Assembly (NCBI GenBank): GCA_035546635.1
Contig: DASZWJ010000019.1
Span: 229,386-293,385, forward strand
Length of the DNA stretch: 64,000 nt
Origin: Gammaproteobacteria bacterium
Lineage (GTDB): Bacteria > Pseudomonadota > Gammaproteobacteria > JAURND01
Reading direction: 5' to 3'
Within the stretch, counting starts at the first letter, position 1, and every line of letters begins with the position of its first letter. Of the stretch, positions 688 through 56,775 are shown one piece after another. The notes beneath the pieces are model-generated. The model searched no databases, had not been told where the DNA came from, and worked only from the letters and a program-made list of their open reading frames with translations. A program made the translations under genes and the position numbers.

Positions 688-737
688 GTTAATCACTGTA
701 ACCCCCTCTCCCCTTGTGGGAGAGGGGATATAGTGCT
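688..737. repeat. REP-like palindromic element, family A. Core is CCCCTCTCCCC-TTGTG-GGAGAGGGG, flanked by CACTGTAA / TAGTGC.
   Basis: Perfect 10-bp inverted repeat around a 5-nt loop, read directly. The core TCCCCTTGTGGGAG or its reverse complement recurs at 7899, 8029, 14666, 5318 and 26137. Confidence 0.7.
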
Positions 738-846
738 TTGCCGGACACCTATGCACAATTTAAAGATGCTTAGCAAGAGGCAGCCCATTCAGCAATTTCT
801 CCAAGCTGTGCTATCATCGTTCATTTTCACCCTGAACTTAAAAATT

Positions 847-2184
847 ATGTCACAAAAACTCTACATCAAAACCTTCGGCTGCCAGATGAACGAATACGAT
901 TCATCTAAAATGGTGGATGTGTTAAAAAACCATGCGGAAATGACCTTAACCGATACCCCTGAAGAAGCCGATATCCTATTACTGAATACGTGCTCCATCC
1001 GTGAAAAAGCCCAAGAAAAAGTGTTTTCCGATTTAGGTCGTTGGCGGCAATTAAAAACGGTGAAGCCTGAGTTAATTATTGGCGTGGGAGGATGCGTTGC
1101 CAGCCAGGAAGGGGAGCAGATTATTAAACGCGCACCATTTGTAGACTTGGTGTTTGGTCCGCAGACCCTGCACCGCCTGCCGGACATGCTCAAGCAACGT
1201 CAAGATACCCATAAGCCAGTCGTGGATATCTCGTTTCCAGAAATTGAGAAATTCGATAACCTACCAGAGCCCAAGGCCAATGGTGCTGCCGCAATGGTTT
1301 CCATTATGGAAGGCTGCAGCAAATATTGCAGCTTTTGTGTAGTGCCTTACACCCGGGGCGAAGAAATCAGTCGCCCATTTGATGATGTGATCTATGAAAT
1401 TGTCAAATTGGCAGAACAAGGGGTACGAGAAGTTACGTTGCTGGGACAGAATGTCAATGATTACCGCGGCCTCATGCATACTGACGGTAAAGCGTCTTTA
1501 GCATTACTCATTCATTATGTGGCTGCTATTCCTAGCATAGAGCGCATCCGCTTTACTACTTCGCATCCATTGGCTTTTTCAGATGACTTGATTGAAGCCT
1601 ATGCGACAGAACCGAAATTAGCTAATCACCTGCACTTACCGGTACAAAGTGGCTCAGACCGCATATTAGCTGCTATGAAACGTGGTTACACCACTTTAGA
1701 ATACAAAGCCAAAATTCGAAAACTACGCAAAGTCAGGCCGGATATCAGCATCACCTCAGACTTCATTGTCGGCTTTCCAGGCGAGACCGAAGCCGATTTT
1801 ATGGCCACTATGAATTTGATTGCTGAAGTCGGGTTTGATGATTCCTTCAGCTTTGTCTATAGCAAACGCCCAGGTACTCCAGCGGCACAACTATCGGATG
1901 ATGTGTCACTTGCGTTGAAGAAACAGCGTTTAAAACTATTACAAGAACGACTACGCCTACAGGGTAGTCACATCAGTGATGCCATGGTTGGCACCGAACA
2001 AAAAGTGTTAGTCGATATTCCGGCTGAACCCGATAAAGTGCTGCAGTTATCCGGCCGCACTGAAAACAATCGCACAGTTAAGTTTGCGGCCAATTCTGAA
2101 CAAATCAAGACGTTACCCGGTCAAATCATTGATATCAGAATCACTGCAGCTTCAAGACATATTCTAAATGGAACAATAGAATGA
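847..2184 (+). CDS. miaB: tRNA-2-methylthio-N6-dimethylallyladenosine synthase MiaB (radical-SAM methylthiotransferase)
   Basis: [19 protein letters not shown]... MTTase N-terminal domain, the radical-SAM CxxxCxxC motif ([15 protein letters not shown]) and a TRAM C-terminus. The ATG at 847 matches the MiaB N-terminus, so the track's upstream extension from 733 is unlikely. Confidence 0.93.
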
Positions 2185-3149
2185 AAAAACCCAGGCACAC
2201 CCTAGAAATGACTTTAACACCTTTTGATAACAAAAGACTCGCTGATCTTTGCGGACAATTTGATGAACACTTGCATCAAATTGAGCGTTACTGGGGTGTA
2301 GAAATCAATAATCGCGGCAATGTGTTTCAAATTATTGGCACTAAACGCTCTGTTAACAAAACCGAAGCCATATTGACGCGACTATTTGAGGAAACCGCTC
2401 ATCCAAATCAGGTCAATCTCGCCAAAATCCACGTATTACTACAAGCCATAGACCAGCAAAGCGAACATAAAAAACCCCCACCAGATTACAATGAATTTGT
2501 CATTAAAACGCGTTTGGTTAAAATTCGTCCGCGCAATCCTAATCAATTTCATTATATTAAAAATATTCAGAGCCATGATATCAGTTTTGGGGTGGGGCCT
2601 TCAGGCACAGGTAAAACTTATTTGGCTGTCGCTGAAGCGGTAACTTCTCTAGAAAATGATAAGGTCCAGCGCATTATTTTGGTGCGTCCGGCTGTAGAAG
2701 CTGGAGAGCGTTTAGGATTTTTACCAGGAGATATGGCGCAAAAAGTCGATCCCTATCTTCGTCCTTTATACGATGCTTTATATGAAATGCTAGGTATAGA
2801 GCAGGTGGATAAGCTGATAGAGCGGAATATTATCGAGGTTGCACCGCTGGCCTATATGCGGGGTAGAACCTTGAATGAAGCATTTATTATTCTGGATGAG
2901 GCGCAAAATACCACACGTGAACAAATGAAAATGTTCTTAACCCGTATTGGTTTTGGTTCTAAAGCCGTCATTACCGGCGATATTACGCAGATTGATTTGC
3001 CTAAAAATGAATTTTCCGGTCTGCGCCATGCCATTGCTGTATTAAATGAGATCAAAGATATACACTTTACGTTTTTTCAGGCGCGCGATGTAGTGCGCCA
3101 TCCTATTGTTCAATTAATTATTCAAGCTTACGAAAAAGCCGAGAAATGA
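2181..3149 (+). CDS. ybeZ: PhoH-like ATPase (YbeZ)
   Basis: Walker [15 protein letters not shown] and the PhoH family signature. The ATGA start/stop overlap with miaB indicates a conserved miaB-ybeZ-ybeY operon. Confidence 0.9.
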
Positions 3150-3613
3150 CGTTACGCCTACACTTGCAACATGCTACCTCGTTAAAACCACTGCCTAGCA
3201 GGCCGCAATTCCGACGTTGGATATTGGCAGCTTTGGCTGGGGCTAAAAAATTTCCTCTTGAATCACCGAGAGAACTCACGATTCGCTTGGTAGATGAAGC
3301 GGAAAGCGCTGAATTGAATAGTACTTACCGACACAAAAAAGGACCTACAAATGTGCTTTCTTTTGTGTTTGATTCTCCGTCTGAAGTAAATATCCCAATA
3401 TATTTGGGAGACCTAGTCATCTGCGCACCTTTGGTGTTAACAGAGGCAGAACAACAGCAAAAGCCTATACTTGCCCACTTTGCTCACCTGACTATTCATG
3501 GAGTCTTGCATTTATTGGGTTATGACCATGAAACGGAACAAGATGCTAATGTAATGGAAAATCTGGAGACGACTATTTTAGGGCAATTGAAGATTGCAGA
3601 TCCATATGCCTAA
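3146..3613 (+). CDS. ybeY: Endoribonuclease YbeY (16S rRNA maturation)
   Basis: Conserved metal-binding motif [12 protein letters not shown]. Overlaps the ybeZ stop. Confidence 0.9.
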
Positions 3614-3711: not shown

Positions 3712-5280
3712 ATGGAAACGGAAGCCTCATCTTCATCCTTTAAATCATCTTTACAGCTTGTCCAACCTCAAGATACCATTGCAGCCGAATCGACTACAGC
3801 GGCTCAACACCAACTACTTGAAATCACTACCCACGTTGCGGCTCAGCTTCGCCAATTGCTAGGTCGACCTTTACGCGTAGTGGATTTAGGATGTGATGAT
3901 GGTTTATTCAGCCTGCAACTTGCCTGCGAGGGCGATGAAGTCATAGGTGCTGACTCAAATCAAGCACACATCTTAACCTGCCAAGCACGGGCCAAAGAAC
4001 TTGGCCTCACCACAACTTTTGTGACAGCCGACATCAGTAATTGGCAGAATTGTGGGAAATCATTTGACCTGGCGCTGGCATTTAATTTGACGCAGTTATC
4101 TGATTTGACGAAGATAGAGAAAACTGTACAAGCTTTATCACAGCGGGCAACCATCGCACTGATTACATCGTCTTGGCAGAATACACAAGAGAATACTTCT
4201 AATCCATTACCAGCTAACCCCTTTCAATTACTTCGACCCTATGCCTATCTTGAAAAATTAACAGAATACCCATCTAGCGTCACTGACATTAAAAACCCTG
4301 TTTTTTTCTGCAGCAATGCCTATTGGTACGCCAAGGGGGCTATGCAACGTTTTGATTATTGGACAGAACAATCACGCCAACGCTTTGAAAAAGAAGTGCA
4401 TAATAATATTTATCCGCATCGGCAGACACGTCGTTACTATTTTAATGATACCCGGATGTTGAAGCATTATCGCTTAACTGGGGATAAAATTAAAAGCAAC
4501 CGCAATGAAATTCAAGCTGAAATTAATTTTATTAACAATAATATGGATAAAATTAACACACTACCACGTATGCAAGCTTACAATATAAGCGAAGATGATG
4601 CCTGGATGTTGCGAGAAAAATTTTCTGGTATTAGATTAAGTTGTGCCATTTCTGACGGCATGGATTATGACCCTAAAAAAATTCTGGTCAGCATTTTACA
4701 GCAGTTGGCCTTATTTGAGCGTCATGGTTTTTATCAGAATGATCTTAGGCCGTGGAATTTTATTTTATCTGAGAATGATACGATATTTTTAATCGATTAT
4801 GGCACTGTCAGCCAAACACCCCGCGATTCATTATCCAGAAAAAAAAGTGTATTCATGAGCTTTTTAGTGTTGGCTCATGAAATTATTTATAGAAAAGTGC
4901 TACTTGTCAGGCAATTCAGCCCAGTTTTTATAAGCCCAAGATATTTTCCTGACAATTATGCCACGTGGTTATACCATCTACTTAGTACTGATTTTAGTCA
5001 GTGGAGTTTTGCATTATTTTTAGAATTGCTTGACCGCAAAGAATTACCCGATAGACATTCTAGAACAGCAGCTAATAATATGCTGTTGTGGCTTGACGAA
5101 ATAGATCAGCACTTGGGCAATCCTAAATTTAAAATGCAGCATTTTCAAAAGTATTTTATTAAAAAATTACATCTGGAAGTTACTAAAGCTGGTTGGAAAA
5201 GCAAGCTTACTACCTTTGTAAATAAGTTTTTACTATTATTGCCGCGCTTTAACCAAAAACCTAATCCTGAGCTTGAGTAG
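3712..5280 (+). CDS. Bifunctional SAM-dependent methyltransferase / eukaryotic-like kinase fusion protein, WbdD-like architecture (paralogue A)
   Basis: The N-terminus carries methyltransferase motif I (LRVVDLGCDDG ... DEVIGAD) and a post-I acidic residue. The C-terminus carries a kinase catalytic loop HGFYQNDLRPWNF (HxDxxxxN) and a DFG-like IDYG. The RBS AGGGAG lies 9 bp upstream. It shares about 35-40% identity, at the same domain positions, with the ORF at 55198-56775. Confidence 0.6.
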   Translation: METEASSSSFKSSLQLVQPQDTIAAESTTAAQHQLLEITTHVAAQLRQLLGRPLRVVDLGCDDGLFSLQLACEGDEVIGADSNQAHILTCQARAKELGLTTTFVTADISNWQNCGKSFDLALAFNLTQLSDLTKIEKTVQALSQRATIALITSSWQNTQENTSNPLPANPFQLLRPYAYLEKLTEYPSSVTDIKNPVFFCSNAYWYAKGAMQRFDYWTEQSRQRFEKEVHNNIYPHRQTRRYYFNDTRMLKHYRLTGDKIKSNRNEIQAEINFINNNMDKINTLPRMQAYNISEDDAWMLREKFSGIRLSCAISDGMDYDPKKILVSILQQLALFERHGFYQNDLRPWNFILSENDTIFLIDYGTVSQTPRDSLSRKKSVFMSFLVLAHEIIYRKVLLVRQFSPVFISPRYFPDNYATWLYHLLSTDFSQWSFALFLELLDRKELPDRHSRTAANNMLLWLDEIDQHLGNPKFKMQHFQKYFIKKLHLEVTKAGWKSKLTTFVNKFLLLLPRFNQKPNPELE

Positions 5281-5456: not shown

Positions 5457-7856
5457 TTGAAATCCAAATTAAAAGCCACAATCCCATCAAAATTTGCCGA
5501 CCATTTTAAACGTCGTCTCAGTGAAGGCGTGCTGCTTGTCGTTGGCATGGTTGCTTTATATTTATTATTAGCGCTATTTACGCATATCCCATCCGACCCC
5601 ACCTGGTCACATATCACTAAACCCATGAGTGTGGTCAATGGCGGCGGCCGAGTTGGCGCATTCCTATCGGATTTTCTACTGTATCTGTTTGGTCGTTTTG
5701 CCTATCTATTCCCACTGATGTTGTTTTACAGCGCATGGTTATATTTCCGCCATCGTGATGAATTAGACACAGATTTCCTCTCTTATTTTCTAATGCTACG
5801 TGGTGCAGGATTTCTCTTTATTTTAGTGCCTGGATGCGCCTTAGCCAGCATTCACTGGGGAATAGCTTCTTTGGCTGATGGAGGAGGTCTGCTTGGCAAG
5901 TGGATTTCCTTCAGCATGATCCGGTTTTTTAACTATTCTGGGGCAAGTTTGATTCTATTAGGGTTGTTTTTAACTGGCCTCACCCTGTTCACCGGATTAT
6001 CTTGGTTAAAATTAGCTGATTATCTCGGTGAGCGCGCCTTTCGCGTAAGTGGCTATTTTCAAGCAATGGCGCATCGTATCGATCAATGGGCTACCAATTC
6101 CAGTATAGAACCAGAACCGGAGTCAGAAGAAGAAACTCCAGCAACACCCTCGCAATCGCTGCCGAAATCCAAACCACAGATTATGCGAGTCGAGCCCAAA
6201 GTTGCGGCACTCAAAGAAATTGAAATTGCCGATCCTGATGAGCCCTATATTTCTTCATTGCAATCAGTTGCTCCTCCGGTGATATCTCCCAAAAGAGTTG
6301 CCACGCCTAAACCATCACCCCGAGCCACGCCGGAACCTTCAGGCTTATTTGAACCGCCGCTGGCAGGTACTTTACCTCCCTTAACCTTACTTGATCCGCC
6401 AGATCACAGCAACGTCAAGGGTTACACTAATCAACAACTGGAAGCCATATCACGAGACGTTGAGTTACGGTTGGAGGATTTTGGCATCCAGGTCAAAGTC
6501 GTCGCCGTGCACCCAGGACCCGTAGTCACTCGTTTTGAGTTGCAATTGGCAGCAGGCACTAAAGTCAGTCGTATTACCGCACTCGCTAAAGATTTGGCAC
6601 GCTCCCTATCAGTTCTGAGTGTGCGCGTGGTAGAAATCATCCCTGGCAAATCCGTCATCGGTCTGGAATTACCCAATATCGATCGCGAAATAGTACGCCT
6701 GCGTGAAATCCTCTCTTCGGAACTGTATCAAAATGCGCATTCACCACTAGCTTTAGCGATGGGTAAAGATATTGCCGGCAGCCCAGTGATTGTCGACCTT
6801 GCGAAAATGCCGCATCTACTCGTCGCTGGAACCACAGGTTCAGGTAAATCGGTTGGCTTGAATGCGATGTTGCTGAGTATGCTATTTAAAGCGACACCTG
6901 CCCAATTGCGTATGATTTTGATTGATCCCAAGATGTTGGAGTTATCTATTTATGAAGGCATTCCGCATTTATTAACTCCTGTAGTGACAGATATGAAAGA
7001 TGCAGCCAATGCCTTACGTTGGGCTGTGGCTGAGATGGACAGACGTTATCGTCTCATGGCAGCGCTTGGCGTGCGTAATTTGGCAGGTTATAACGCCAAA
7101 ATTAAAGCGGCTAGTACTGCAGGTGCTCCAATCCTCGATCCCTTATGGCCAGCTGATTTTGCTGAGGAAGCTCCGCCATTGGAGGAATTAGCTTATATCG
7201 TGATATTGGTGGATGAATTTGCCGATATGATGATGTTGGTAGGCAAAAAAGTAGAAGAATTAATTGCGCGCATCGCCCAAAAAGCCCGCGCTGCAGGCAT
7301 CCATCTGATTCTTGCCACCCAAAGACCGTCGGTCGATGTCATCACAGGGCTGATTAAGGCGAATATTCCGACGCGCATTGCATTTCAAGTATCTTCTAAA
7401 ATTGACTCTCGCACCATTTTAGATCAGCAGGGCGCTGAACAGTTGTTGGGTCATGGCGATATGCTGTATCTCGCGCCCGGCACGGGCGTGCCCATACGTA
7501 TTCATGGTGCATTTGTGGCTGATGAAGAAGTGCACCGTGCCGTTCAAGATCTTAAGCGTCGAGGCGAGCCACAATATCTCAATGAAATTTTATCAGGAGA
7601 TAATGAATCCGCAGAGGGCGCTGCTGGCGGAGAAGGTGGTGATTTTGCGGGCGAACAGGATCCCTTATACGATCAAGCGGTGCAAATTGTCATCGAAACA
7701 CGCCGCGCTTCAATTTCTAATATCCAGCGCCGTTTGAAGATTGGTTATAACCGCGCTGCGAATATTGTCGAATCCATGGAGGCAGCAGGCGTAGTAAGCC
7801 GAATGGATCATACAGGGAGCAGGGAAGTGTTGGTGCAGAATGCGATGGCGGATTGA
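5457..7856 (+). CDS. ftsK: DNA translocase FtsK. The TTG at 5457 is the first possible start, because an in-frame stop lies at 5451-5453.
   Basis: N-terminal membrane segments, a Pro/Ser-rich linker, motor-domain Walker A GTTGSGKS, and a C-terminal gamma winged-helix domain ([30 protein letters not shown]). Confidence 0.9.
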
Positions 7857-24536: not shown

Positions 24537-24647
24537 AAAGGGTAGGGTAAGCGAAAAACATAATTTTTTCTGAACCGAAAATTTTTAACTAATTTTAAAC
24601 AATAATATAATCTCGGTCTTCAATAAACTTTGGTGAAGAAAAAATAT

Positions 24648-26084
24648 ATGCTTATTACCCCCTCTCGAAAAAATTGGTATCGACTTTTATTAATCATGGT
24701 ATTTTTTGCGTTTCTTAGCGCATTCTTCATGATTTTCCTTCCGCATATTAAAGAGGAAGGTCGGTATACCATTGCCTCCATGGAAATGTTTTACAATCAT
24801 TACTATTGGCAACCGACCACGTATGGCGCACATTATCGAAGACCGCCCTTTTTCAATTGGCTAACACTGCCTATTATGCACTGGATAGGTGCCCAAAATG
24901 TACTGGTTGCTTCGCGTATTGTGGCGGCTAGCGGCACTGTGCTTTTAGCCTTGATGTTGTGGTTCTTCAGTCTCCACTTATTTAAAAACAAAGTCTTCGC
25001 GATTTTTAGTGTTGCCGTATTATTTTCTGGAGATTTTCTATTAGGCAAGGCCTGGGTGGCTTACCCTGATACTTGGTTTGCGTTTTTCACGTTTACTGCC
25101 ATTAGCTGCATGTGGATAAGCATTAAAGAACAACGTCCTTTATTTTGGATTCCTATCCCTTTTGTATTATTCGCAGCGCTACTCACCAAAGCGTTCACCT
25201 GTTATATATTTTATGCTACCGCATTATTGGTAGTAACCATAGGGTTAGGATGGTCTAAAAACTGGCGTTATCTACTTAAACCGGCCAGCATTTTAGCCCA
25301 TGCATTAGTGATTATATTACCCCTCACATGGTTTTTGCTGCCTGAATCGACTGGTTTAGCCGGTATGTTAGGAGATGTTTCGGGTTCAATGGCACAACCT
25401 GAGCAATTCACCTGGTTAGGTTATTTTCTAAAAATTCTGTCAACGCCGTTTAGTTTCATTTATTTGCTGCTCCCCATTGATATACTGGTGCTTTATTGTT
25501 TATATCGCTATAAAAAATATCCTACTATCCAGCCGGTCACCCGTTTGGATGGACAATCCATTAAATTATTAATCTGGATTATAGTCTTAAGCATATTACC
25601 TTATTGGTTTTCGACAGCGCATCTGTTAAATCCACGTTATTTATTTCCCTTATTACCCATGATAGCGATAGTGCTAGCCTATTGTGTTTGGCGGGCTGGG
25701 GAAAAAATGGTGGGTTTTGCCATTTTAATATTAATATTTGAGTTGTTCTTGAAGTGTATTTTGGTCATTTTAATTAGCCACCCTGGGAAGTTTACCTCTG
25801 TAGATTTTTCGCTTGACCAAATTGCAAATGATGCCCTCAAGCAAAGTCAGTCATATGCTAATTTAATCTATGTTAGCGATTTCGATGATGGGGGATATGG
25901 GGTGAATATTGCCTCTAAAATTAATATAATCCGTTGGCCTCAACCACCTTTAACGACTGCGCCTGAGCCACTGACCAAAGGTTGTGTGCTTAGCCAGGTG
26001 AATAGTACTAAGTGGGGGGTAGTGCCCAAGGTATATCATGTAAATAACGGGCGGGGTAAGCCTATTTATGTTTATTGCAAATAG
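24648..26084 (+). CDS. GT-C fold membrane glycosyltransferase, ArnT/PMT-like (GT83/GT39 family); candidate lipid A or envelope glycan modifier
   Basis: Polytopic membrane protein. The first periplasmic loop (EEGRYTIASMEMFYNHYYWQPTTYGAHYRRPPFFNWL) resembles the ArnT/PMT D/ExRYAEIAREM…KPPL.YW signature. It lies directly upstream of msbA-lpxK. The ATG at 24648 or the TTG at 24630 could be the start. Confidence 0.6.
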   Translation: MLITPSRKNWYRLLLIMVFFAFLSAFFMIFLPHIKEEGRYTIASMEMFYNHYYWQPTTYGAHYRRPPFFNWLTLPIMHWIGAQNVLVASRIVAASGTVLLALMLWFFSLHLFKNKVFAIFSVAVLFSGDFLLGKAWVAYPDTWFAFFTFTAISCMWISIKEQRPLFWIPIPFVLFAALLTKAFTCYIFYATALLVVTIGLGWSKNWRYLLKPASILAHALVIILPLTWFLLPESTGLAGMLGDVSGSMAQPEQFTWLGYFLKILSTPFSFIYLLLPIDILVLYCLYRYKKYPTIQPVTRLDGQSIKLLIWIIVLSILPYWFSTAHLLNPRYLFPLLPMIAIVLAYCVWRAGEKMVGFAILILIFELFLKCILVILISHPGKFTSVDFSLDQIANDALKQSQSYANLIYVSDFDDGGYGVNIASKINIIRWPQPPLTTAPEPLTKGCVLSQVNSTKWGVVPKVYHVNNGRGKPIYVYCK

Positions 26085-31836: not shown

Positions 31837-33399
31837 TCAACGATGACGCATCTTCCTCTGATTGAAATAGGCATATAATAAAAAAATCCCCATCAATACT
31901 AAAATAGGATAAATACCTATCTGCATCCAAGGCGTGCTTCCTGACATTGGTTGAACTTTACCTGTTAGTATAAACTCCCTAAACGGAGGGGCTGCTGCTA
32001 TGATCTTCCCTTTGGGAGTGACAATTGCTGTGATGCCATCATTCGTACTCATCAAGGCAAAACGACCCGTTTCCAAAGCTCGCATTTGTAAGATTTCCAG
32101 ATGCTGTGCTGGAGCTAGCGATTTGCCAAACCAACTGTCATCACTCAGAGTAATCAATAACTGTCCCTTAGGTAACTGATTTAACACAAGAGTTGGGTAG
32201 GCTATTTCATAACAAATAAAAGTTGCTATAGGAATACCATTGGCAGTTAGCAGTGCTTGATGCTTTGGACCACTATCAAAATCAGACATGGGAATTATCA
32301 CATAATTTTTTAACCACCTCAGGATTGAGCGAAATGGCATATACTCTCCAAATGGCACCAAATGACGCTTAAGATAAACTCCAGATCCCTGTCCTAGCGC
32401 AAGCATTCCATTGTAATACCGATCATCTAGCGCAATAGGTATTCCAGAAATCAGAGTACTCTGTTGAGATTTAGCCAATTGATCCATCTCTGCTAAAAAA
32501 TCAGATACCTGTGTTTGGTAAAAAGTAATAGCCGCTTCTGGCCAAATAACAATTCGCTGCTCCAGATTAGAGAGAGTCAGTTTTTTGTATAAAAGTAAGG
32601 ATTGTATGGCTTGTTCAGGTCGCCATTTAAGCTGCTGAGCGACATTTCCCTGTACCAAAGTCACTTTAACTGGATTACCACTAGGATGTGTCCAGCGAAT
32701 AGAATCTAATACTTCTCCACCTATCCATAATGCTAGCAGTAAAACGATAACTGATAACGCTAGACGGAAGTGTTTCCTGGCCATGATGGCCACTACAATA
32801 ACCCCACTGCTGACTGCAACTGCAAAGGATACACCAAATACTCCAACCAAAGGCGCAAAGCCGCTTAAAGGAGAAGCTATCTGCGAGTATCCCAAAAATA
32901 ACCATGGAAAACCGCTAAAGAACCAAGTGCGCACCCATTCTAGTAATACCCACAAGGCTGGGAAAGCTAATAAATATTTGCTGACAGTATTGGCTGGGAA
33001 AAACCGCGTTAAAACATAACCTAACACAGCAGGAAATAGCGCCAACACCATGATTAATAAGGCTGTAATAATTGCGGCAAGCACCGCATTTGCCTGCCCA
33101 TATTCACTCAAACTGATATAAATCCAAGAGATACCAATACCGAAAAAACCTAATCCAAATAACCAACCACGCCAAAAGCCATATTGCGGTGAAGCATCAG
33201 ATAATAAAATAAGCCAGAATGCTGGAGCCAAAACTGATAACAAATAAATGTGGAACGGTGCAAATGCCAGAGGCAGCAATAAGCCTGCAATCAACGCACC
33301 CAGATTACTCGGCCATGCAGGTCGTAGATTGACTCTACGGTTAAATGGGTTTTGAGGGTATTGTGCGGTTACATAATTAAAAGGACTGTATTTATTCAC
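31837..33399 (-). CDS. lnt: Apolipoprotein N-acyltransferase Lnt
   Basis: N-terminal multi-TM domain plus a C-terminal nitrilase-like CN hydrolase domain (…WPE…; catalytic Cys in the ATFICYE context), about 520 aa. It lies immediately downstream of corC, the order seen in the E. coli ybeX-lnt pair. Confidence 0.9.
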   Translation of the reverse strand: MNKYSPFNYVTAQYPQNPFNRRVNLRPAWPSNLGALIAGLLLPLAFAPFHIYLLSVLAPAFWLILLSDASPQYGFWRGWLFGLGFFGIGISWIYISLSEYGQANAVLAAIITALLIMVLALFPAVLGYVLTRFFPANTVSKYLLAFPALWVLLEWVRTWFFSGFPWLFLGYSQIASPLSGFAPLVGVFGVSFAVAVSSGVIVVAIMARKHFRLALSVIVLLLALWIGGEVLDSIRWTHPSGNPVKVTLVQGNVAQQLKWRPEQAIQSLLLYKKLTLSNLEQRIVIWPEAAITFYQTQVSDFLAEMDQLAKSQQSTLISGIPIALDDRYYNGMLALGQGSGVYLKRHLVPFGEYMPFRSILRWLKNYVIIPMSDFDSGPKHQALLTANGIPIATFICYEIAYPTLVLNQLPKGQLLITLSDDSWFGKSLAPAQHLEILQMRALETGRFALMSTNDGITAIVTPKGKIIAAAPPFREFILTGKVQPMSGSTPWMQIGIYPILVLMGIFLLYAYFNQRKMRHR

Positions 33400-33411
33400 A
33401 ATATAAGATCA

Positions 33412-34278
33412 CTATCGGTCATTTTTGTAACTGTTACTCTCTTCTGGTAATTGAGAGGAAGGCAGAGTTACTTGCAGTAATTTAATTCTACGTTTATCTG
33501 CATATAATACTTTAAACTCTAGATCGTCAATGCTAACTGTTTCAGAGCGCTTAGGCATATATCCAAAACTTTGAGCGACTAGACCACCTACGGTATCAAA
33601 TTCATCATCACTTAACGTTGTGTGAAAAAAATCATTAAATTCCTCGATGCGTGTCAAGGCTTTTACAGAATACTGTGAGCCACTGATTTGTTGAATATTG
33701 GTCTGATCTTCATCTACATCATACTCATCCTCAATTTCACCCACGATCTCTTCTAATACATCTTCAATAGTCAACATACCTGAAACACTACCGTATTCAT
33801 CGACAACAATCGCCATATGGTTACGGTTTTGGCGAAATTCTTCTAATAATATATTAAGCCTTTTACTTTCAGGGATGAAGGTGGCCGGTCGTAATATGTT
33901 GCTCATTTTAAATTCGGTTTCTTTATTAAAAGTAAATGGCAATAAATCTTTAGCCAGCAAAATACCCACTACTTCATCACGATTTTCTTTAATCACTGGG
34001 AAGCGTGAATGTGCGGACGAAATCACGGTAGGTAAAATCTCTTCCAGAGTTGAATCCAGTTCAATGACTACCATCTGTGATCGCGGAATCATCACATCCC
34101 GCACCTGCATCCCATGAACCTGAACGACTCCTTCAATCATGCGTATCGCTTCAGAATCTATTAAATGCTCATTAGCAGCATCCCGCAACCATTCCAGCAA
34201 TTCTTCAGGAGTTTTAGGACGCGAAAGCGCATGGCCTATTCGTTCTAGCCAAGATTTACTCGACGATTCACCACTCAT
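33412..34278 (-). CDS. corC: Magnesium/cobalt efflux protein CorC (YbeX): CBS-pair plus CorC_HlyC domain
   Basis: Tandem CBS domains and the transporter-associated C-terminal domain, about 288 aa. Confidence 0.88.
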   Translation of the reverse strand: MSGESSSKSWLERIGHALSRPKTPEELLEWLRDAANEHLIDSEAIRMIEGVVQVHGMQVRDVMIPRSQMVVIELDSTLEEILPTVISSAHSRFPVIKENRDEVVGILLAKDLLPFTFNKETEFKMSNILRPATFIPESKRLNILLEEFRQNRNHMAIVVDEYGSVSGMLTIEDVLEEIVGEIEDEYDVDEDQTNIQQISGSQYSVKALTRIEEFNDFFHTTLSDDEFDTVGGLVAQSFGYMPKRSETVSIDDLEFKVLYADKRRIKLLQVTLPSSQLPEESNSYKNDR

Positions 34279-45637: not shown

Positions 45638-45645
45638 GTGGCACA

Positions 45646-46956: not shown

Positions 46957-47033
46957 TGAAGGATCTCCTTATGGTGGCACTAGCCACATGAAGTACCACC
47001 ATAAGGAGATCCTTCGTTTACGCTCAGGATGAC
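46941..47033. repeat. REP-like element, family C (TCATCCTGAGC…GAAGGATCTCCTTATGGTGG…CCACCATAAGGAGATCCTTC…GCTCAGGATGACA)
   Basis: Near-perfect arms of more than 20 bp inside an outer TCATCCTGAGC/GCTCAGGATGA inverted repeat. It sits at the hisD/hisC junction. The left arm supplies the hisD stop codon. The right arm contains the spurious ATG at 47029. Confidence 0.75.
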
Positions 47034-47097
47034 AAAAAAATACAGCAACAGCCATATTAACAATTTAATACTTAAGAGCATCTTGAGTACACATATT

Positions 47098-49850: not shown

Positions 49851-49913
49851 TGTGGCGCCTCATCATAAAAGTGCCATCATACGGAGATCCTTCGCTATCG
49901 CTCAGGATGACAG
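49821..49913. repeat. REP-like element, family C, second copy at the hisH/hisA junction
   Basis: TCCTGAGCGAAAGCGAAGGATCTCC…GGAGATCCTTCGCTATCGCTCAGGATGA, with arms of about 25 bp. It overlaps the hisH 3' end. Confidence 0.75.
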
Positions 49914-49932
49914 TCAAGGGAAATAAACCTCA

Positions 49933-52865: not shown

Positions 52866-53078
52866 TTTATTTCCCCATAAATTTAATCTTTACTAAAGAT
52901 ACTCCATAACCGCTACAAGGCTACCATTGACCTACCCATAAACAATGGTAAGATTCTCTTAGTATACATGGATGATTATAGGTTATATTTAGTTATAATA
53001 CCAATCGTCTGCATCTATTAGATGTATTTTTTAGGATATTTTGACGGGCAACTGCCCATCTCCATAAGGAATATAACC

Positions 53079-54251
53079 ATGACCACCTTAACCGGATTAG
53101 ATCTGTTTGAACGAGAATGGCCTTCGAGCTTTAACGCGGCAAGAGTAGGCCTATTGGTACATCCTTCTTCCGTAAATAAAAATCTTACCTATGCTGTAGA
53201 CCTATTTTTGCAATCTAAAAAATTTAAAGTGACTGCATTATTTGGCCCCCAACATGGTATACGCGGTGAAACACAAGATAATATGATTGAATGGGAAGGC
53301 TTCCAAGATCAAAAAACTGCATTGCCGGTATTTAGCTTATACGGAAAAGCTCGCAAACCTACCCCGGAAATGTTAAAAAATGTCGATGTTTTGGTAATTG
53401 ATCTTCAAGATGTAGGGGCTCGCTACTACACTTTTATCTGGACTATGGCGCTTTGTATGGAAGCCTGCGCTGAACTTAACAAGTCCATACTCATTTTAGA
53501 CCGACCTAATCCCATCAATGGGCGTGATATTGAAGGGCAGATTTTAGATCCGCATTACAGCTCTTTCGTGGGGCTGCGTCCACTGCCGATACGCCATGGG
53601 ATGACAGTAGGGGAAATAGCAAGCTACTTAAAAGAAACCTTTTATCCCAAACTAGATTTAAAGGTAATCCCTATGCAGGGTTGGAAGCGTGATATGGCAT
53701 TTGATGAGACAAAATTGCCCTGGGTCATGCCATCACCTAATATGCCGACACTGGATACGGCTTTTGTTTATCCAGGTATGTGTCTATTTGAAGGCACACA
53801 GCTAAGTGAAGCGCGTGGCACCACGCGACCATTTGAGATTTTCGGTGCCCCCTTCATCGACCCGGATAAATTAGTAAAGCAGCTAGATGCCTTTAAATTA
53901 CCCGGTGTGAAATTTAGACCAAGCTATTTTTTACCTACATTCCAAAAACATGCAAATACTGTGTGTGCCGGTGCACAAATTTATGTCACAGATAGAGCTC
54001 AGTATAAATCCGTACAAACAGCGATAGTGATATTAAAAGTGATTCACGACTTGTATCCTTCCCAGTTTGCTTGGAAAAATCCACCTTATGAATATGAGGA
54101 GGAAAAAATGCCCATTGATATACTCGCCGGGAATGATGAATTAAGAACGACTATAGAACAAGGAAAGGACATTTCACAGCTGGAAACCAGCTGGCAAAAT
54201 GAATGCGAGAATTTTAATAACCAGGTCAGGAAGAAATTTTTAATCTATTAA
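53079..54251 (+). CDS. DUF1343 family protein (NamZ-like exo-beta-N-acetylmuramidase family)
   Basis: Family signature region …WVMPSPNMPTLDTAFVYPGMCLFEGTQLSEARGTTRPFE… The start is set at MTTLTGLDLFE (53079). Confidence 0.65.
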   Translation: MTTLTGLDLFEREWPSSFNAARVGLLVHPSSVNKNLTYAVDLFLQSKKFKVTALFGPQHGIRGETQDNMIEWEGFQDQKTALPVFSLYGKARKPTPEMLKNVDVLVIDLQDVGARYYTFIWTMALCMEACAELNKSILILDRPNPINGRDIEGQILDPHYSSFVGLRPLPIRHGMTVGEIASYLKETFYPKLDLKVIPMQGWKRDMAFDETKLPWVMPSPNMPTLDTAFVYPGMCLFEGTQLSEARGTTRPFEIFGAPFIDPDKLVKQLDAFKLPGVKFRPSYFLPTFQKHANTVCAGAQIYVTDRAQYKSVQTAIVILKVIHDLYPSQFAWKNPPYEYEEEKMPIDILAGNDELRTTIEQGKDISQLETSWQNECENFNNQVRKKFLIY

Positions 54252-54265
54252 GATGTGTTGTATCT

Positions 54266-55201
54266 ATGAATATATTTATACCTGCTGCGGGATTTGGTTC
54301 GCGCTTATCCCCCATTACCTCCCGTATACCTAAACCTTTACTGCCTATTGTTGGCAAACCCTTGCTAGGATTATCGCTGGAAAAACTCAACCGCCTTAAA
54401 CCTAATCAAATAGGTATAAATCTTCACTATCTGCGCGAAGCCTTAACCCAATGGGTTGCGCATTCGCCGTTGCGCAATAAAATACAGCTATTTCCAGAAG
54501 AAACGATTTTAGGTTCTGGTGGCGCACTGAACAATGCCTATTCTTTATTGTGCCAAGATCACTTTCTGGTTTATAACAGTGATGTGCTATGTGATCTAGA
54601 TTTAGAATGGTTAATGCAACAACATTTGAATTCTGAAAACCTAGTCACACTCACCACCTGTCAGCACCCTAAATTTCCTCATGTTAAAGCGAATGTTGCT
54701 ATTAATTCTGAAGGTTTTTTTCAAGGCGTTGACAAAAAGCTTATTCCTTACGCTAAAGTAGCACAATACGTGGCTTATACCAGTATCGCGATGTATTCCC
54801 CTGAGTTTTTACAATTTTTACCTGCAGGAAAATCCAGTGTGCTAGATGCCTGGTTGACAGTAGCCGCCAAAGGTTATCGCATCGGCACCGTAGATATCAG
54901 CGCTTATGACTGGAATGATATAGGCACTCCTGCCGCCTATTTCTCAGCTGCTATGACTAATTTAAAAAGTACTGGTAAATCGGTTTATATCCATCCTTCT
55001 GCCAATGTCAATCGCACTGCGGTCATAGAAGGAGAGGTGATTATTGAAAGATATGCGGTAGTCGAGTCGGGGGTCAGTATTAAAAACTGCTTACTGCTAC
55101 CTGGTGCTGAGTTAATAAAAAACCGGCGCTATGAAAATAGTATCATAGGGCCCGGTTATGAGCTGCCAATGCTGTCATCCTTCGCTTGCGCTCAGGACTA
55201 A
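54266..55201 (+). CDS. Sugar-1-phosphate nucleotidyltransferase (NTP_transferase domain plus C-terminal left-handed beta-helix)
   Basis: MNIFIPAAGFGSRLSPITSRIPKPLLPIVGKPLL is the RmlA/GlmU/MurU-type G-x-G-x-R-L…K motif. The C-terminus carries hexapeptide-like repeats. The gene lies 14 bp downstream of the DUF1343 gene, so the two are probably an operon. Confidence 0.75.
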   Translation: MNIFIPAAGFGSRLSPITSRIPKPLLPIVGKPLLGLSLEKLNRLKPNQIGINLHYLREALTQWVAHSPLRNKIQLFPEETILGSGGALNNAYSLLCQDHFLVYNSDVLCDLDLEWLMQQHLNSENLVTLTTCQHPKFPHVKANVAINSEGFFQGVDKKLIPYAKVAQYVAYTSIAMYSPEFLQFLPAGKSSVLDAWLTVAAKGYRIGTVDISAYDWNDIGTPAAYFSAAMTNLKSTGKSVYIHPSANVNRTAVIEGEVIIERYAVVESGVSIKNCLLLPGAELIKNRRYENSIIGPGYELPMLSSFACAQD

Positions 55202-56775
55202 GAAACCAACGGTCGATTAAGATAGCGCGAAAATTTAGAGAAGCGCACTAAAAATTTATTATACAGAAAAATATTTATTAATTTTTGCTGCAAAGTATTT
55301 TTTCTTGATTCTTGACTTAGCTTCTTAATAACTACTTTTTCAAAATATTTAAGCTTCATTTCCCTTTTTGCTATCAATCCTTCAATTTCATTTAACCAAG
55401 GTCTTAAAGAATTATTCAGTTCAGCTGAAATGATTTTCTGCTCACCCTCGTGAAATAGCTTTAAAAACAGGCTAAAACTCCATTGTTGCGGGTGTGTTGA
55501 TAATATTCCCTGAATTAAATTTAAATAAATATCAGGATAATTTTCTGCCTTTAAGAACATAGGGCTCAAATTCCTGATCGTGACTATTTTTCTGTGAGTT
55601 ACTTCATAGATAAATACTAAAAATGCTAGAAAAATATTTTTAGGCACCATCACATTACGTGCTGCATCTTCAATAGCGCCAAAATCAATGAGCCGTACCG
55701 AACCCTGGGTAGAAATCAGCACATTCCAAACGCGTAAATCATTATGATAAAGACCATGCGCTTCCAAGGCGGCCAATTGTTCCAGAATGTCACCAATAAT
55801 CACATTAGGGTCATAATCCAGTCCCTTGATTATCATGGTGCTTAATAAAATCCCAGGTATTTTTTCACGCAACACCCAACCGCTGTCTTCATGCATTTCA
55901 AAACCCAACAAGCGCGGCAATACATGAGTCACCGAAAATCCACTTTGCAAAAATTTTATTTCACCTACAAGTTCTTCACGGTTGCTCTCTGCTTCATCAC
56001 CTGAGAGTTGAAAATTTTTAAGCATCGTATTAGTGGTAAAATAATAACGTCGTGAGTCTTTATGTGCATCATTCGTAAATTCATGTGAAGTATTAGTCCA
56101 TGAATCAAAATGCGTTAGCTCTTCATTAATATACCAATAATGATTGCTGCAAAAATAGATAGGACGCTGAATTTTTGACAGGTGGGTATGATGGTGTGAT
56201 ATTTGCTGAAAATAAGCAAATTGATCCAATAATTCATAGGGCTGGTCCGGTAGGGAAGTAGCCCATTTTTCAGGCTCTTCTCTAAGAGCGGTTTCGATAA
56301 GACAGGCTGCCGTTCTTTGTGCTAAAAGGCCAATGAAATTTCGAGTAGTCTCAAATCCGATGTGATGACACAGATGATGAAAAACGCTAAGTCCTATGAT
56401 TAAATCAAACTCTTTAATGGGCAAAGCGTCAATTCCGGCTACACAGTCAGCAACTACAAAAGTCGCAGGCAAGGACAAGACTTTAGATAACTCTGTGCAA
56501 AGCTCCACATTTTGCGGAACTATATCAATACCATATACCTCATCACCAACAGCTGCCAGGTTAAAACAGAAGAAACCCTGAGCGCATCCTATATCTAAAA
56601 TCCGCAATGGACGCTGCAACTCAGAACGCAATTTATCAGCAACACTCTGTACGATCCACCATCTATCATAACAGCTGCGCGATGAATTCCCATCAAATTC
56701 ATTAAAACCATAAATTGGTTGATAGATTTCTGGCAAATTACCAATTAGATATTTTATCTGTGAGTTCGATTCCAT
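55198..56775 (-). CDS. Bifunctional SAM-dependent methyltransferase / eukaryotic-like kinase fusion protein, WbdD-like architecture (paralogue B)
   Basis: Methyltransferase motif I LRILDIGCAQG…DEVYGID and a kinase catalytic loop HGLYHNDLRVWNVLI with a canonical DFG (LIDFGAIED). It is collinear with the ORF at 3712-5280 (shared blocks FCSN.YWY, RRYYF, QWSF.LFL). It is AT-rich relative to the housekeeping neighbours. Confidence 0.6.
   Translation of the reverse strand: MESNSQIKYLIGNLPEIYQPIYGFNEFDGNSSRSCYDRWWIVQSVADKLRSELQRPLRILDIGCAQGFFCFNLAAVGDEVYGIDIVPQNVELCTELSKVLSLPATFVVADCVAGIDALPIKEFDLIIGLSVFHHLCHHIGFETTRNFIGLLAQRTAACLIETALREEPEKWATSLPDQPYELLDQFAYFQQISHHHTHLSKIQRPIYFCSNHYWYINEELTHFDSWTNTSHEFTNDAHKDSRRYYFTTNTMLKNFQLSGDEAESNREELVGEIKFLQSGFSVTHVLPRLLGFEMHEDSGWVLREKIPGILLSTMIIKGLDYDPNVIIGDILEQLAALEAHGLYHNDLRVWNVLISTQGSVRLIDFGAIEDAARNVMVPKNIFLAFLVFIYEVTHRKIVTIRNLSPMFLKAENYPDIYLNLIQGILSTHPQQWSFSLFLKLFHEGEQKIISAELNNSLRPWLNEIEGLIAKREMKLKYFEKVVIKKLSQESRKNTLQQKLINIFLYNKFLVRFSKFSRYLNRPLVS

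What the first reader, a model, noticed from the sequence alone, without database searches (positions are those of the whole stretch)
3712..5280. Two paralogous WbdD-like methyltransferase-kinase fusion proteins in one 64-kb window
Where: ORFs 3712-5280 (+) and 55198-56775 (-).

What the sequence shows:
- Both ORFs are about 520 aa and collinear at roughly 35-40% identity.
- Each carries an N-terminal class-I SAM methyltransferase motif I (LR[VI][VL]D[LI]GC..G … DEV.G.D).
- Each carries a C-terminal protein-kinase-like core: catalytic loop HG[FL]Y[QH]NDLR.WN, then IDYG in A or IDFG in B.

Why it matters:
- The only well-characterised protein with this domain order is E. coli O9a WbdD, a kinase plus methyltransferase.
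- WbdD caps the polymannan O-antigen with a methyl-phosphate and so sets chain length.
- These two proteins lack WbdD's long C-terminal coiled coil.
- They are not located next to Wzm/Wzt or mannosyltransferase genes.
- Their substrate could therefore be a glycan, a small molecule or a host protein.
- The presence of two diverged copies suggests functional specialisation.
- Copy A sits exactly in the slot after ybeY that corC (ybeX) normally occupies.
Basis: partly seen in the sequence, partly recalled or inferred. Interest (0 to 1): 0.62.

Follow-up and report, generated by a model that had tools for sequence, protein, structure and literature searches.

The report
Two orphan WbdD-like kinase-methyltransferase paralogues
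The window really does encode two diverged relatives of WbdD, the E. coli enzyme that caps a surface sugar polymer; one looks fully equipped, while the other keeps the kinase but has lost every residue WbdD needs to methylate phosphate, and neither lies near sugar-polymer genes.

Summary
Observation confirmed. ORF A (3712-5280 +, 522 aa) and ORF B (55198-56775 -, 525 aa) are collinear paralogues (37% identity, E 5e-110). Both are true WbdD homologues by sequence (phmmer vs PDB: B 2e-91, A 1.4e-45) and by fold (Foldseek: 1e-45 and 1.3e-32).

- **Copy B:** keeps all residues shown experimentally to be needed for WbdD phosphate methylation (Y16, H132, H133, R203) and the kinase core.
- **Copy A and its orthologues:** have lost all four residues plus R31 and R36 of the sulphate pocket. 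They keep the SAM-binding motifs and an intact, more strongly conserved kinase.
- **Origin:** A, B and a third paralogue found in a sister MAG form one lineage-specific clade (bootstrap 100/100) in an uncultured gammaproteobacterium. Legionellales placement was not verified.
- **Synteny:** A always sits between ybeY and ftsK (four genomes). B sits beside NamZ and a GMPPB-like nucleotidyltransferase, downstream of the his operon.
- **Context:** among 71 distant homologue loci, Wzt was found in 50, GT4 in 51 and Wzm in 42. This lineage has none.
- **Tails:** short (about 55-residue helix) and basic-amphipathic.
- **corC-lnt:** present in the window but inverted, so A marks an inversion breakpoint rather than a replacement of corC.

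Verdict: a new variant of a known kind, of moderate interest.

The parts
3712..5280 (+). Copy A: 522-aa WbdD-family protein with an intact kinase and a catalytically degenerate methyltransferase-like domain
   Evidence: ORF. phmmer vs WbdD 1.4e-45. AF2 pLDDT 86.1. Foldseek to WbdD 4ax8 1.3e-32. Orthologues P0122 (68%) and P0123 (57%) lie in the same slot.
3712..3777 (+). A residues 1-22: diverged N-terminal 'lid', predicted disordered. It lacks the LPEIYQPI motif that carries WbdD Tyr16.
   Evidence: pLDDT about 32. Y16 equivalent is V/I/S in the A clade against Y in 36/37 other members. Identity among A orthologues is only 27-38% here.
3778..4314 (+). A residues about 23-201: class I SAM-methyltransferase fold. 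Motif I (DLGC..G) and the acidic residues D81 and D119 are kept; H132, H133, R203, R31 and R36 equivalents are lost.
   Evidence: Pfam Methyltransf_25 6.8e-11. Column table. Alignments.
4315..5052 (+). A residues about 202-447: eukaryotic-like kinase domain. K251, E270, D344 (QND), N349 and D362 (DYG) are present. There is an insertion next to the Gly-rich-loop position, where Arg replaces the family His/Tyr.
   Evidence: Invariant columns. Column table. 72-76% identity among A orthologues.
5053..5277 (+). A residues 448-522: helical tail (helices 448-467, 471-509) ending in a basic amphipathic segment. It shares the lineage motif F[EQ]K.FIKKL.
   Evidence: Secondary structure. Hydrophobic moment and charge. 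Alignment.
55198..56775 (-). Copy B: 525-aa WbdD-family protein with a complete set of methyltransferase and kinase catalytic residues
   Evidence: ORF. phmmer vs WbdD 2.2e-91. AF2 pLDDT 88.3. Foldseek 1e-45, TM 0.85. Orthologue P0002 is 70% identical in the same synteny.
56146..56775 (-). B residues 1-210: N-terminal lid plus methyltransferase domain with Y18, R33, R38, H133, H134 and R204 (= WbdD Y16, R31, R36, H132, H133, R203)
   Evidence: These are the most conserved parts of the B clade (72-90% identity to P0002).
55405..56145 (-). B residues 211-457: kinase domain with K253, E272, H344-N-D346, N351 and D364-F-G
55201..55404 (-). B residues 458-525: single long helix (458-512) followed by a basic amphipathic end. 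Residues 506-523 have muH 0.65 and net charge +5, the highest hydrophobic moment in the protein.
54266..55201 (+). Context of B: sugar-1-phosphate nucleotidyltransferase (NTP_transferase + GMPPB_C). It converges on B with a 4-bp overlap, and the adjacency is conserved in the sister MAG.
   Evidence: Best PDB match is human GMPPB over the full length, 3.4e-18. MurU model gives 1.5e-28 but scores below its cut-off.
53022..54251 (+). Context of B: NamZ-family (DUF1343) protein directly upstream of the nucleotidyltransferase
   Evidence: Pfam NamZ_N/NamZ_C.
3146..3613 (+). Context of A: ybeY, the upstream synteny anchor
5457..7856 (+). Context of A: ftsK, the downstream synteny anchor
31837..34278 (-). 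lnt (31837-33399) and corC (33412-34278), the genes that normally follow ybeY, here inverted about 29 kb away
   Evidence: Pfam LNT_N/CN_hydrolase and CorC_HlyC/CBS.

Best explanation
A and B are two of at least three lineage-specific paralogues of the WbdD family of glycan-terminating kinase/methyltransferases, in an uncultured gammaproteobacterium.

**Copy B** is a complete enzyme. Its eukaryotic-like kinase domain phosphorylates a hydroxyl group, most likely on the non-reducing end of a lipid-linked glycan at the cytoplasmic face of the inner membrane. The adjoining SAM methyltransferase domain then methylates that phosphate, as in E. coli O9a WbdD.

**Copy A** has kept the kinase under strong constraint. 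It has lost every residue that WbdD needs to bind and methylate the phosphate, while still looking able to bind SAM. It most likely acts as a kinase only, adding a phosphate without a methyl group or acting on a different acceptor. Its methyltransferase-like domain would then serve as a scaffold or SAM sensor.

**Shared features.** Both proteins carry only a short helical stalk and a basic amphipathic end. That would hold them, probably as oligomers, close to the membrane instead of on a long 'molecular ruler'.

**Shown:** homology, fold, the residue pattern, paralogy, synteny and the absence of nearby glycan genes.

**Inferred:** the substrate, membrane binding, oligomeric state and the kinase-only activity of A.
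For: - **Homology:** full-length homology to WbdD by sequence and fold.
- **Experimental basis:** Y16F, H132A, H133A and R203A each abolish WbdD methylation but not phosphorylation. D351, N356, D369 and E274 form the kinase site (PMC3482155).
- **Residue pattern:** in a 43-sequence family alignment, the six methyltransferase and pocket residues are conserved in 36-37 of 37 outside members and in B, P0002 and P0003. All are replaced in A, P0122 and P0123. K, E, D, N and D of the kinase are invariant in all 43.
- **Domain-wise identity:** the pattern inverts between clades. A clade: lid 27-38%, MTase 40-69%, kinase 72-76%. B clade: lid 78-90%, MTase 62-72%, kinase 47-69%.
- **Wider lineage:** relatives P0247, P0248 and P0252 have truncated or deleted methyltransferase domains but intact kinases.
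- **Paralogy:** A+B+C monophyly has NJ bootstrap 100/100.
- **Synteny:** ybeY-A-ftsK is conserved in four genomes, down to 37% identity. B sits beside NamZ and the nucleotidyltransferase in two genomes.
- **Neighbour of B:** it resembles GDP-mannose pyrophosphorylase GMPPB.
- **Family context:** overwhelmingly glycan assembly. Wzt in 50, GT4 in 51, Wzm in 42 and ManC in 21 of 71 loci.
- **Tails:** basic amphipathic tails, matching the membrane-associated amphipathic helix described for WbdD (PMC11231755).
Against: - No Wzm, Wzt, polymerase glycosyltransferase or other O-polysaccharide gene lies in the 64-kb window or within 10 kb of any orthologue. No glycan substrate can therefore be named.
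- The long coiled-coil ruler and the polymerase-recruitment region that define WbdD's chain-length mechanism are missing.
- The stalk helix is modelled with only moderate confidence (pLDDT 59-70).
- Loss of WbdD's catalytic residues does not prove that A's methyltransferase domain is inactive on some other, non-phosphate acceptor.
- The rest of the genome could not be searched.
Confidence: 0.55

Rival explanations
1. A, B and the third paralogue are secreted (for example type IV) effector kinases of an intracellular bacterium. They would phosphorylate, and in B's case methyl-phosphorylate, host glycans, lipids or proteins rather than the bacterium's own envelope glycan.
For: - The expansion is lineage-specific, and none of the paralogues is linked to glycan gene clusters.
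- The third paralogue and the P0245-type gene lie near Fic, LRR, HEPN and Sel1-repeat genes, which are typical of host-associated bacteria.
- The kinase fold is eukaryotic-like.
- Legionella is known to deploy many atypical kinases (PMC9758233).
Against: - A sits in a deeply conserved housekeeping slot (ybeY-A-ftsK) in four genomes, and B next to the his operon. This is unlike typical accessory effector loci.
- B keeps the phosphate and sulphate pocket residues of the glycan-capping family.
- The tails are basic-amphipathic rather than acidic or Glu-rich.
- No secretion system is present in the window, and the organism's lifestyle and order are unverified.
Confidence: 0.15
2. B is a small-molecule sugar kinase that works with its neighbours. 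NamZ would release a sugar, B would phosphorylate it, and the nucleotidyltransferase would activate it. This is analogous to the AmgK-MurU MurNAc salvage route.
For: - The NamZ-nucleotidyltransferase-B adjacency is conserved in two genomes.
- The nucleotidyltransferase's best NCBIfam hit is MurU, at 1.5e-28.
- No separate AmgK-like kinase lies in the neighbourhood.
Against: - B is convergent with, not co-oriented with, the NamZ operon.
- The MurU score (100 bits) is far below the model cut-off (250). The full-length best structural relative is GMPPB, with the beta-helix domain that MurU lacks.
- B matches the APH family of AmgK only at E 0.007, below cut-off.
- WbdD phosphorylates a 3-OH, not the anomeric position.
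- B retains the phosphate-methylating residues, which would block nucleotidyl transfer.
Confidence: 0.07
3. Copy A is a decaying, non-functional duplicate on its way to becoming a pseudogene.
For: A has lost six otherwise near-invariant methyltransferase residues, the HxD histidine is replaced by Gln, and A has the longest branches in the tree.
Against: - The reading frame is intact in four genomes in the same slot.
- The kinase domain is 72-76% identical among orthologues whose methyltransferase domain has fallen to 40%.
- All kinase catalytic residues are retained.
- The AlphaFold model is confident.
Confidence: 0.05

Closest known systems
E. coli O9a / Klebsiella O3 WbdD (PDB 4AZS, 4AZW, 4UW0): bifunctional kinase and phosphate methyltransferase that terminates polymannan O-antigen
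   Same: - Same domain order and fold over about 460 residues.
- B shares all experimentally defined methyltransferase and kinase catalytic residues.
- Both window proteins have a helix after the kinase corresponding to the trimer-forming helix alpha-V, and a basic amphipathic C-terminus.
   Different: - Length is 522-525 aa against 708 aa, so there is no extended coiled-coil ruler or recognisable polymerase-recruitment region.
- They are not encoded with wzm, wzt, wbdA or manCB.
- The acceptor-contacting Tyr230 is His in B (as in most of the family) and Arg plus an insertion in A.
- A lacks Y16, H132, H133, R203, R31 and R36.
E. coli O8 / Klebsiella O5 WbdD (methyltransferase-only terminator)
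   Same: It gives a precedent that members of the WbdD family can carry only one of the two activities (PMC3482155).
   Different: O8 WbdD has lost the kinase and kept methylation. Copy A and its relatives show the opposite: kinase kept, methylation residues lost. That kinase-only state does not appear in the papers read here.
Short 'orphan' WbdD homologues of alphaproteobacterial MAGs (loci L012, L016, L017, L025, L029, L035, L069)
   Same: They are 506-566 aa, have no Wzm, Wzt or GT4 within 8 kb, and share no recurrent neighbours.
   Different: They group apart from the A/B/C clade in the NJ tree, though that alphaproteobacterial grouping has weak support (bootstrap 20/100). L012, the closest of them to B, is no more than 39% identical to it.
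Legionella Lcin_0519 kinase-methyltransferase family (pan-kinome survey, PMC9758233)
   Same: It is also a kinase/methyltransferase combination, proposed to decorate LPS in a Legionellales genome.
   Different: The authors describe it as a clearly different family, only remotely related to WbdD, and it is encoded next to wzm, wzt and a glycosyltransferase. The window proteins are true WbdD-family members and have no such neighbours.

Membership tests
WbdD family (glycan-terminating methyltransferase-kinase) | N-terminal class I SAM-dependent methyltransferase fold with SAM-binding motif I and the acidic post-I residue | tested here: met
   Both meet it. Pfam Methyltransf_25/31/11 score above the gathering score. 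D61, G63, D84 and D124 (B numbering) are invariant or nearly so, A included. The fold match covers this domain.
WbdD family (glycan-terminating methyltransferase-kinase) | Phosphate-methylation catalytic residues Y16, H132, H133 and R203, plus pocket residues R31 and R36 | tested here: met
   Copy B only: Y18, H133, H134, R204, R33 and R38 are all present, as in 36-37 of 37 other members.
WbdD family (glycan-terminating methyltransferase-kinase) | The same phosphate-methylation residues, tested in copy A | tested here: not met
   A, P0122 and P0123 have V/I/S, a gap or S, a gap or E, N/Q, A/E and L at these six positions. The N-terminal lid is predicted disordered.
WbdD family (glycan-terminating methyltransferase-kinase) | Eukaryotic-like kinase domain directly after the methyltransferase, with the catalytic Lys, Glu274, Asp351, Asn356 and Asp369 (DFG) | tested here: met
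   Both meet it. K253, E272, D346, N351 and D364 are invariant in all alignments. phmmer and Foldseek alignments to WbdD span both domains.
WbdD family (glycan-terminating methyltransferase-kinase) | Extended C-terminal coiled-coil 'molecular ruler' (WbdD residues about 460-600 and beyond) | tested here: not met
   Only 68-77 residues follow the kinase. B has one helix (458-512) and A has two (448-467, 471-509), at pLDDT of about 50-95. Coiled-coil propensity and trimerisation were not computed.
WbdD family (glycan-terminating methyltransferase-kinase) | C-terminal membrane-associated amphipathic helix and polymerase recruitment site | tested here: inconclusive
   The tails are basic amphipathic: B 506-523 has muH 0.65 and charge +5, and the last 40 residues hold 8 K+R against 1-3 D+E. 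This is consistent with membrane binding. A recruitment site cannot be recognised from sequence.
WbdD family (glycan-terminating methyltransferase-kinase) | Encoded with an ABC-transporter-dependent glycan cluster (Wzm, Wzt with a carbohydrate-binding module, polymerising glycosyltransferase) | tested here: not met
   None lies in the 64-kb window or within 10 kb of the orthologues. In 71 distant homologue loci, Wzt appears in 50, GT4 in 51 and Wzm in 42.
WbdD family (glycan-terminating methyltransferase-kinase) | Demonstrated phosphorylation then methylation of the terminal sugar of a polymer | not testable with these tools
   Requires enzyme assays.
AmgK (anomeric MurNAc/GlcNAc kinase, APH family) working with MurU | Membership of the APH/choline-kinase phosphotransferase family, co-oriented with murU | tested here: not met
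   B matches APH at E 0.0071, 16.6 bits against a cut-off of 23.2. B is convergent with the nucleotidyltransferase, and that enzyme is closer to GMPPB than to MurU.
Lcin_0519-type Legionella kinase-methyltransferase | Sequence membership of that family | not tested
   No Lcin_0519 sequence was available. The describing paper states that the family is distinct from WbdD, whereas A and B match WbdD at E 1e-45 to 1e-91.

The most novel reading that the evidence does not exclude
The A-type gene, fixed between ybeY and ftsK in at least four genomes of an uncultured gammaproteobacterial lineage, may define a previously undescribed kinase-only derivative of the WbdD fold. Its SAM-binding pseudo-methyltransferase domain would be regulatory, and its target would not be an O-antigen at all. 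Candidates include another envelope or cell-division-linked molecule, or a host molecule. The repeated loss of the methyltransferase in relatives (P0247, P0248, P0252) would then mark a new family of bacterial eukaryotic-like kinases that emerged from a glycan-capping enzyme.
Probability: 0.25. Interest if true: 0.65.

Novelty: new variant of a known kind. Interest (0 to 1): 0.42.

Why it matters
WbdD is the textbook example of how bacteria set the length of a surface polysaccharide, using a terminal cap and a coiled-coil ruler.

This lineage shows the same catalytic module in a different configuration. It has almost no ruler, it sits outside any glycan gene cluster, and it is triplicated. One copy has shed the methylation chemistry but kept the kinase under strong constraint.

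That gives a natural 'separation-of-function' pair for asking two questions:
- What does a phosphate-only cap, or a WbdD-type kinase acting alone, do?
- Do orphan short WbdD homologues, which also occur in Alphaproteobacteria, still act on O-antigens?

It also corrects database annotation. Both proteins are currently named only 'methyltransferase domain-containing protein' or 'class I SAM-dependent methyltransferase'.

Tried and rejected
- **MurNAc-salvage reading (NamZ + MurU + kinase):** considered for B and largely rejected.
- **Pseudogene reading of A:** rejected on conservation.
- **Taxonomy:** I tried to place the organism with MutS. Only unnamed metagenomic relatives came back, the closest named one being 'Coxiella sp. 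DG_40' at 64%. Legionellales could not be confirmed.
- **Metagenome scan with the A-clade alignment:** found nothing.
- **Promoter and terminator scans around both genes:** no more informative than shuffled sequence. Co-transcription of A with ybeY remains open.
- **Base composition:** gives no sign of a foreign island (GC 0.37-0.43 against a window average of about 0.42).
- **Shared neighbours among short orphan homologues elsewhere:** none found.
- **his-operon proximity:** B lies close to the his operon, as does relative P0248, and enterobacterial O-antigen clusters do too. I noted this but could not distinguish it from coincidence.
Full report
**1. Observation**

Mechanical ORF listing gives 3712..5280 (+), 522 aa, and 55198..56775 (-), 525 aa. 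BLASTP between the two gives 37% identity and 55% positives over 492 residues, E 5e-110.

Pfam puts the N-terminal halves in class I methyltransferase families above the gathering score. The C-terminal halves match Pkinase just below it. NCBIfam offers no specific family.

**2. Relationship to WbdD**

- phmmer against PDB sequences gives WbdD as by far the best hit. B aligns over residues 7-469 at E 2.2e-91 and A over 33-456 at E 1.4e-45. The next hits are generic kinases or methyltransferases at about 1e-5 to 1e-7.
- AlphaFold models built on a 43-sequence alignment are confident: B has pLDDT 88.3 and pTM 0.81; A has 86.1 and 0.84.
- Foldseek against the PDB returns the five WbdD entries first. 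For B the best is E 1e-45 with TM 0.85 normalised to the target; for A it is E 1.3e-32 with TM 0.77. Nothing else is better than 1e-8.

**3. What differs between the two copies**

The WbdD structure paper shows that Y16F, H132A, H133A and R203A each abolish phosphate methylation without affecting phosphorylation. It also describes a sulphate and phosphate pocket lined by R31, R36 and others. The kinase depends on Y230, D351, N356, D369 and E274 (PMC3482155).

In the 43-sequence family alignment, the equivalents of Y16, R31, R36, H132, H133 and R203 are conserved in 36-37 of 37 members outside this lineage. They are also conserved in B and its relatives P0002 and P0003. All six are replaced or deleted in A and its orthologues P0122 and P0123.

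- **SAM binding:** A keeps the SAM-binding signature (DLGC..G, the post-I Asp and the FDL Asp).
- **Kinase core:** the kinase Lys, Glu, Asp, Asn and DFG-Asp are invariant in all 43 sequences.
- **HxD histidine:** it is Gln in A.
- **Position of WbdD Y230:** it is His in B, as in 32 of 37 others. In A it is Arg, next to a 9-11-residue insertion.
- **N-terminus:** A's first 22 residues, the lid that carries Y16 in WbdD, are predicted disordered.

Domain-wise identity confirms a shift of constraint:

| Clade | Lid | Methyltransferase | Kinase |
|---|---|---|---|
| A orthologues | 27-38% | 40-69% | 72-76% |
| B orthologues | 78-90% | 62-72% | 47-69% |

**4. Evolutionary setting**

Word-indexed searches found only three close relatives of A and two of B. 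Everything else is at or below about 40% identity.

The sister genome is MAG CAWFAS01, an 'uncultured Gammaproteobacteria bacterium'. It carries an A-type gene (57% identical), a B-type gene (70%) and a third paralogue (55% to B). An NJ tree of 71 family members places A, B and the third paralogue in one clade. Bootstrap support is 100/100, with 100 for the A subclade and 96 for the B subclade.

An exhaustive HMMER search of 1.84 billion cluster representatives with the A-clade profile found 285 family clusters at E <= 1e-30. A small intermediate group (P0245-P0249, P0252) shares the lineage-specific tail motif F[EQ]K.FIKKL.

Within that group:
- P0245 is A-like, with degenerate methyltransferase residues. 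It lies between ybeY and ftsK.
- P0247, P0248 and P0252 have truncated or deleted methyltransferase domains but intact kinases.

Methyltransferase decay with kinase retention therefore recurs in this lineage.

MutS places the organism only among unnamed metagenomic gammaproteobacteria: 81% to the sister MAG, no more than 73% to others, and 64% to 'Coxiella sp. DG_40'. Legionellales is unverified. Two Legionella sp. MAGs do carry WbdD homologues, but those are canonical. Both have a GT4 gene within 8 kb, L060 also has Wzm and Wzt, and both branch with enterobacterial sequences.

**5. Genomic context**

- **A:** lies in mfd-miaB-phoH-ybeY-[A]-ftsK-rdgC. This arrangement is conserved in four genomes.
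- **B:** lies downstream of the his operon, after a rhodanese gene, an HTH gene, and a NamZ-nucleotidyltransferase pair that converges on B with a 4-bp overlap. On B's other side is a divergently transcribed MsbA-like ABC exporter. The sister MAG keeps his operon-rhodanese-NamZ-nucleotidyltransferase-B but has an MFS transporter in place of the ABC exporter upstream of B.
- **The nucleotidyltransferase:** matches human GDP-mannose pyrophosphorylase GMPPB over its full length (3.4e-18). It also carries the GMPPB_C beta-helix. The MurU model scores far below its cut-off.

Pfam annotation of the rest of the window shows only housekeeping genes: rne, rluC, a thi operon behind a TPP riboswitch, nudC, sbcB, trpS, msbA-lpxK, lnt, corC, rpsA, cmk, mutS and his. 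No Wzm, Wzt or glycosyltransferase is present.

For comparison, I clustered the neighbours (+/-8 kb) of 71 distant homologues and annotated representatives of the clusters. The number of loci containing each neighbour was:

| Neighbour | Loci (of 71) |
|---|---|
| Wzt with Wzt_C | 50 |
| GT4 | 51 |
| Wzm | 42 |
| RmlD/epimerase | 38 |
| ManC | 21 |
| ManB | 15 |

Forms of 580 aa or more are almost always inside such clusters. Many short forms (about 500-570 aa), mainly from alphaproteobacterial MAGs, are orphans with no shared neighbours. These alphaproteobacterial orphans group away from the A/B/C clade in the NJ tree, although their own grouping is weakly supported (bootstrap 20/100).

**6. 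C-terminal tails**

[quoted passage not shown] Here only 68-77 residues follow the kinase:
- B has one helix, 458-512.
- A has two helices.
- Both end in a strongly basic amphipathic segment. B 506-523 has muH 0.65 and net charge +5, the highest moment in the protein. The last 40 residues carry 8-13 K+R against 0-3 D+E across the lineage.

This fits a peripheral membrane enzyme held close to the bilayer, but that is an inference.

**7. Interpretation**

The best-supported reading is that B is a complete WbdD-type kinase and phosphate methyltransferase. A is a kinase-only derivative whose methyltransferase-like domain is retained for SAM binding or as a scaffold.

The family's overwhelming association with ABC-transporter-dependent glycan assembly makes a lipid-linked glycan the most likely substrate class. 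So does the GMPPB-like neighbour of B. The absence of any linked glycan genes keeps this at moderate confidence.

Rivals considered:
- **Host-directed effector kinases:** supported by the lineage-specific expansion and by Fic, LRR and Sel1 neighbours of relatives. The housekeeping synteny of A and B argues against it.
- **Sugar-salvage kinase working with NamZ and the nucleotidyltransferase:** opposed by gene orientation, family assignment and B's retained methylation residues.
- **Decay of A to a pseudogene:** opposed by strong kinase conservation in four genomes.

**8. The corC remark**

In E. coli the order is miaB-ybeZ-ybeY-ybeX(corC)-lnt (established knowledge). Here corC (33412-34278) and lnt (31837-33399) are present but on the minus strand, about 29 kb downstream of ybeY.

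Re-inverting roughly 3.65-34.3 kb would restore the canonical order. A therefore lies at an old inversion breakpoint rather than replacing corC. The ybeY-A-ftsK-rdgC-rne arrangement produced by that breakpoint is also found in the sister MAG.

**9. Novelty and score**

The family is known and the proteins are clear members at the catalytic-domain level. Three things are new here:
- Ruler-less, cluster-independent paralogues that have been triplicated in one lineage.
- A conserved kinase-only state, the reverse of the methyltransferase-only O8 WbdD.
- A fixed housekeeping location for that copy.

This is a new variant of a known kind. Interest is moderate (0.42). It would be higher if the A-type proves to act on something other than an O-antigen.

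Noticed in passing
window 31837-34278 (-) versus 733-3613 (+): lnt and corC, which normally follow miaB-phoH-ybeY directly, lie inverted about 29 kb away. A single inversion of roughly 3.65-34.3 kb would restore the canonical operon. Copy A sits at one breakpoint.
   Followed up: partly
window 57243-59048 (+) and 26321-29100 (+): There are two MsbA-like ABC exporters. One is in the canonical msbA-lpxK pair (26321-29100). The second (best model 'MsbA_rel', below cut-off) is divergently transcribed from copy B across a 467-bp spacer. It is absent from that position in the sister MAG.
   Followed up: partly
window 53022-55201 (+): A NamZ-family (exo-N-acetylmuramidase-like) gene is paired with a GMPPB-type sugar-1-phosphate nucleotidyltransferase. 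This is an unusual pairing, conserved in the sister MAG, and its pathway role is unclear.
   Followed up: partly
window 9240-10808 (+) and 24630-26084 (+): Two large ORFs (522 and 484 aa) have no Pfam or NCBIfam match. The first contains a long serine-rich low-complexity tract. An unannotated ORF of similar size occupies the same position in the sister MAG.
   Followed up: no
window 14810-14916 (+): A TPP riboswitch (74 bits) lies upstream of thiC and heads a thiC-thiO-thiG-thiDE cluster.
   Followed up: no
L088 (MAG contig_667) 10001-11284; window 44741-52032 versus 55198-56775: WbdD-like kinases of this lineage lie within about 3 kb of the his operon in two different arrangements. B is downstream of hisIE, and kinase-only P0248 is upstream of hisG. 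Enterobacterial WbdD-containing O-antigen clusters also abut his genes. This may be coincidence or a relic.
   Followed up: no
loci L012, L016, L017, L025, L029, L035, L069: Short (506-566 aa) WbdD homologues in alphaproteobacterial MAGs are also orphans, without Wzm, Wzt or GT4 and with no shared neighbours. They suggest a wider, undescribed class of cluster-independent WbdD-like enzymes.
   Followed up: partly
protein P0129: A metagenomic MutS homologue 71% identical to the window's MutS is annotated as fused to ankyrin repeats (1194 aa). This may be a gene-calling fusion or a real eukaryotic-like domain in a relative.
   Followed up: no
L091 2482-4523: The methyltransferase-less relative P0252 overlaps a CTP_transf_like cytidylyltransferase gene and lies near a phosphoglucomutase/phosphomannomutase gene. 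This is a second hint of a link to sugar-phosphate or nucleotide-sugar metabolism.
   Followed up: no
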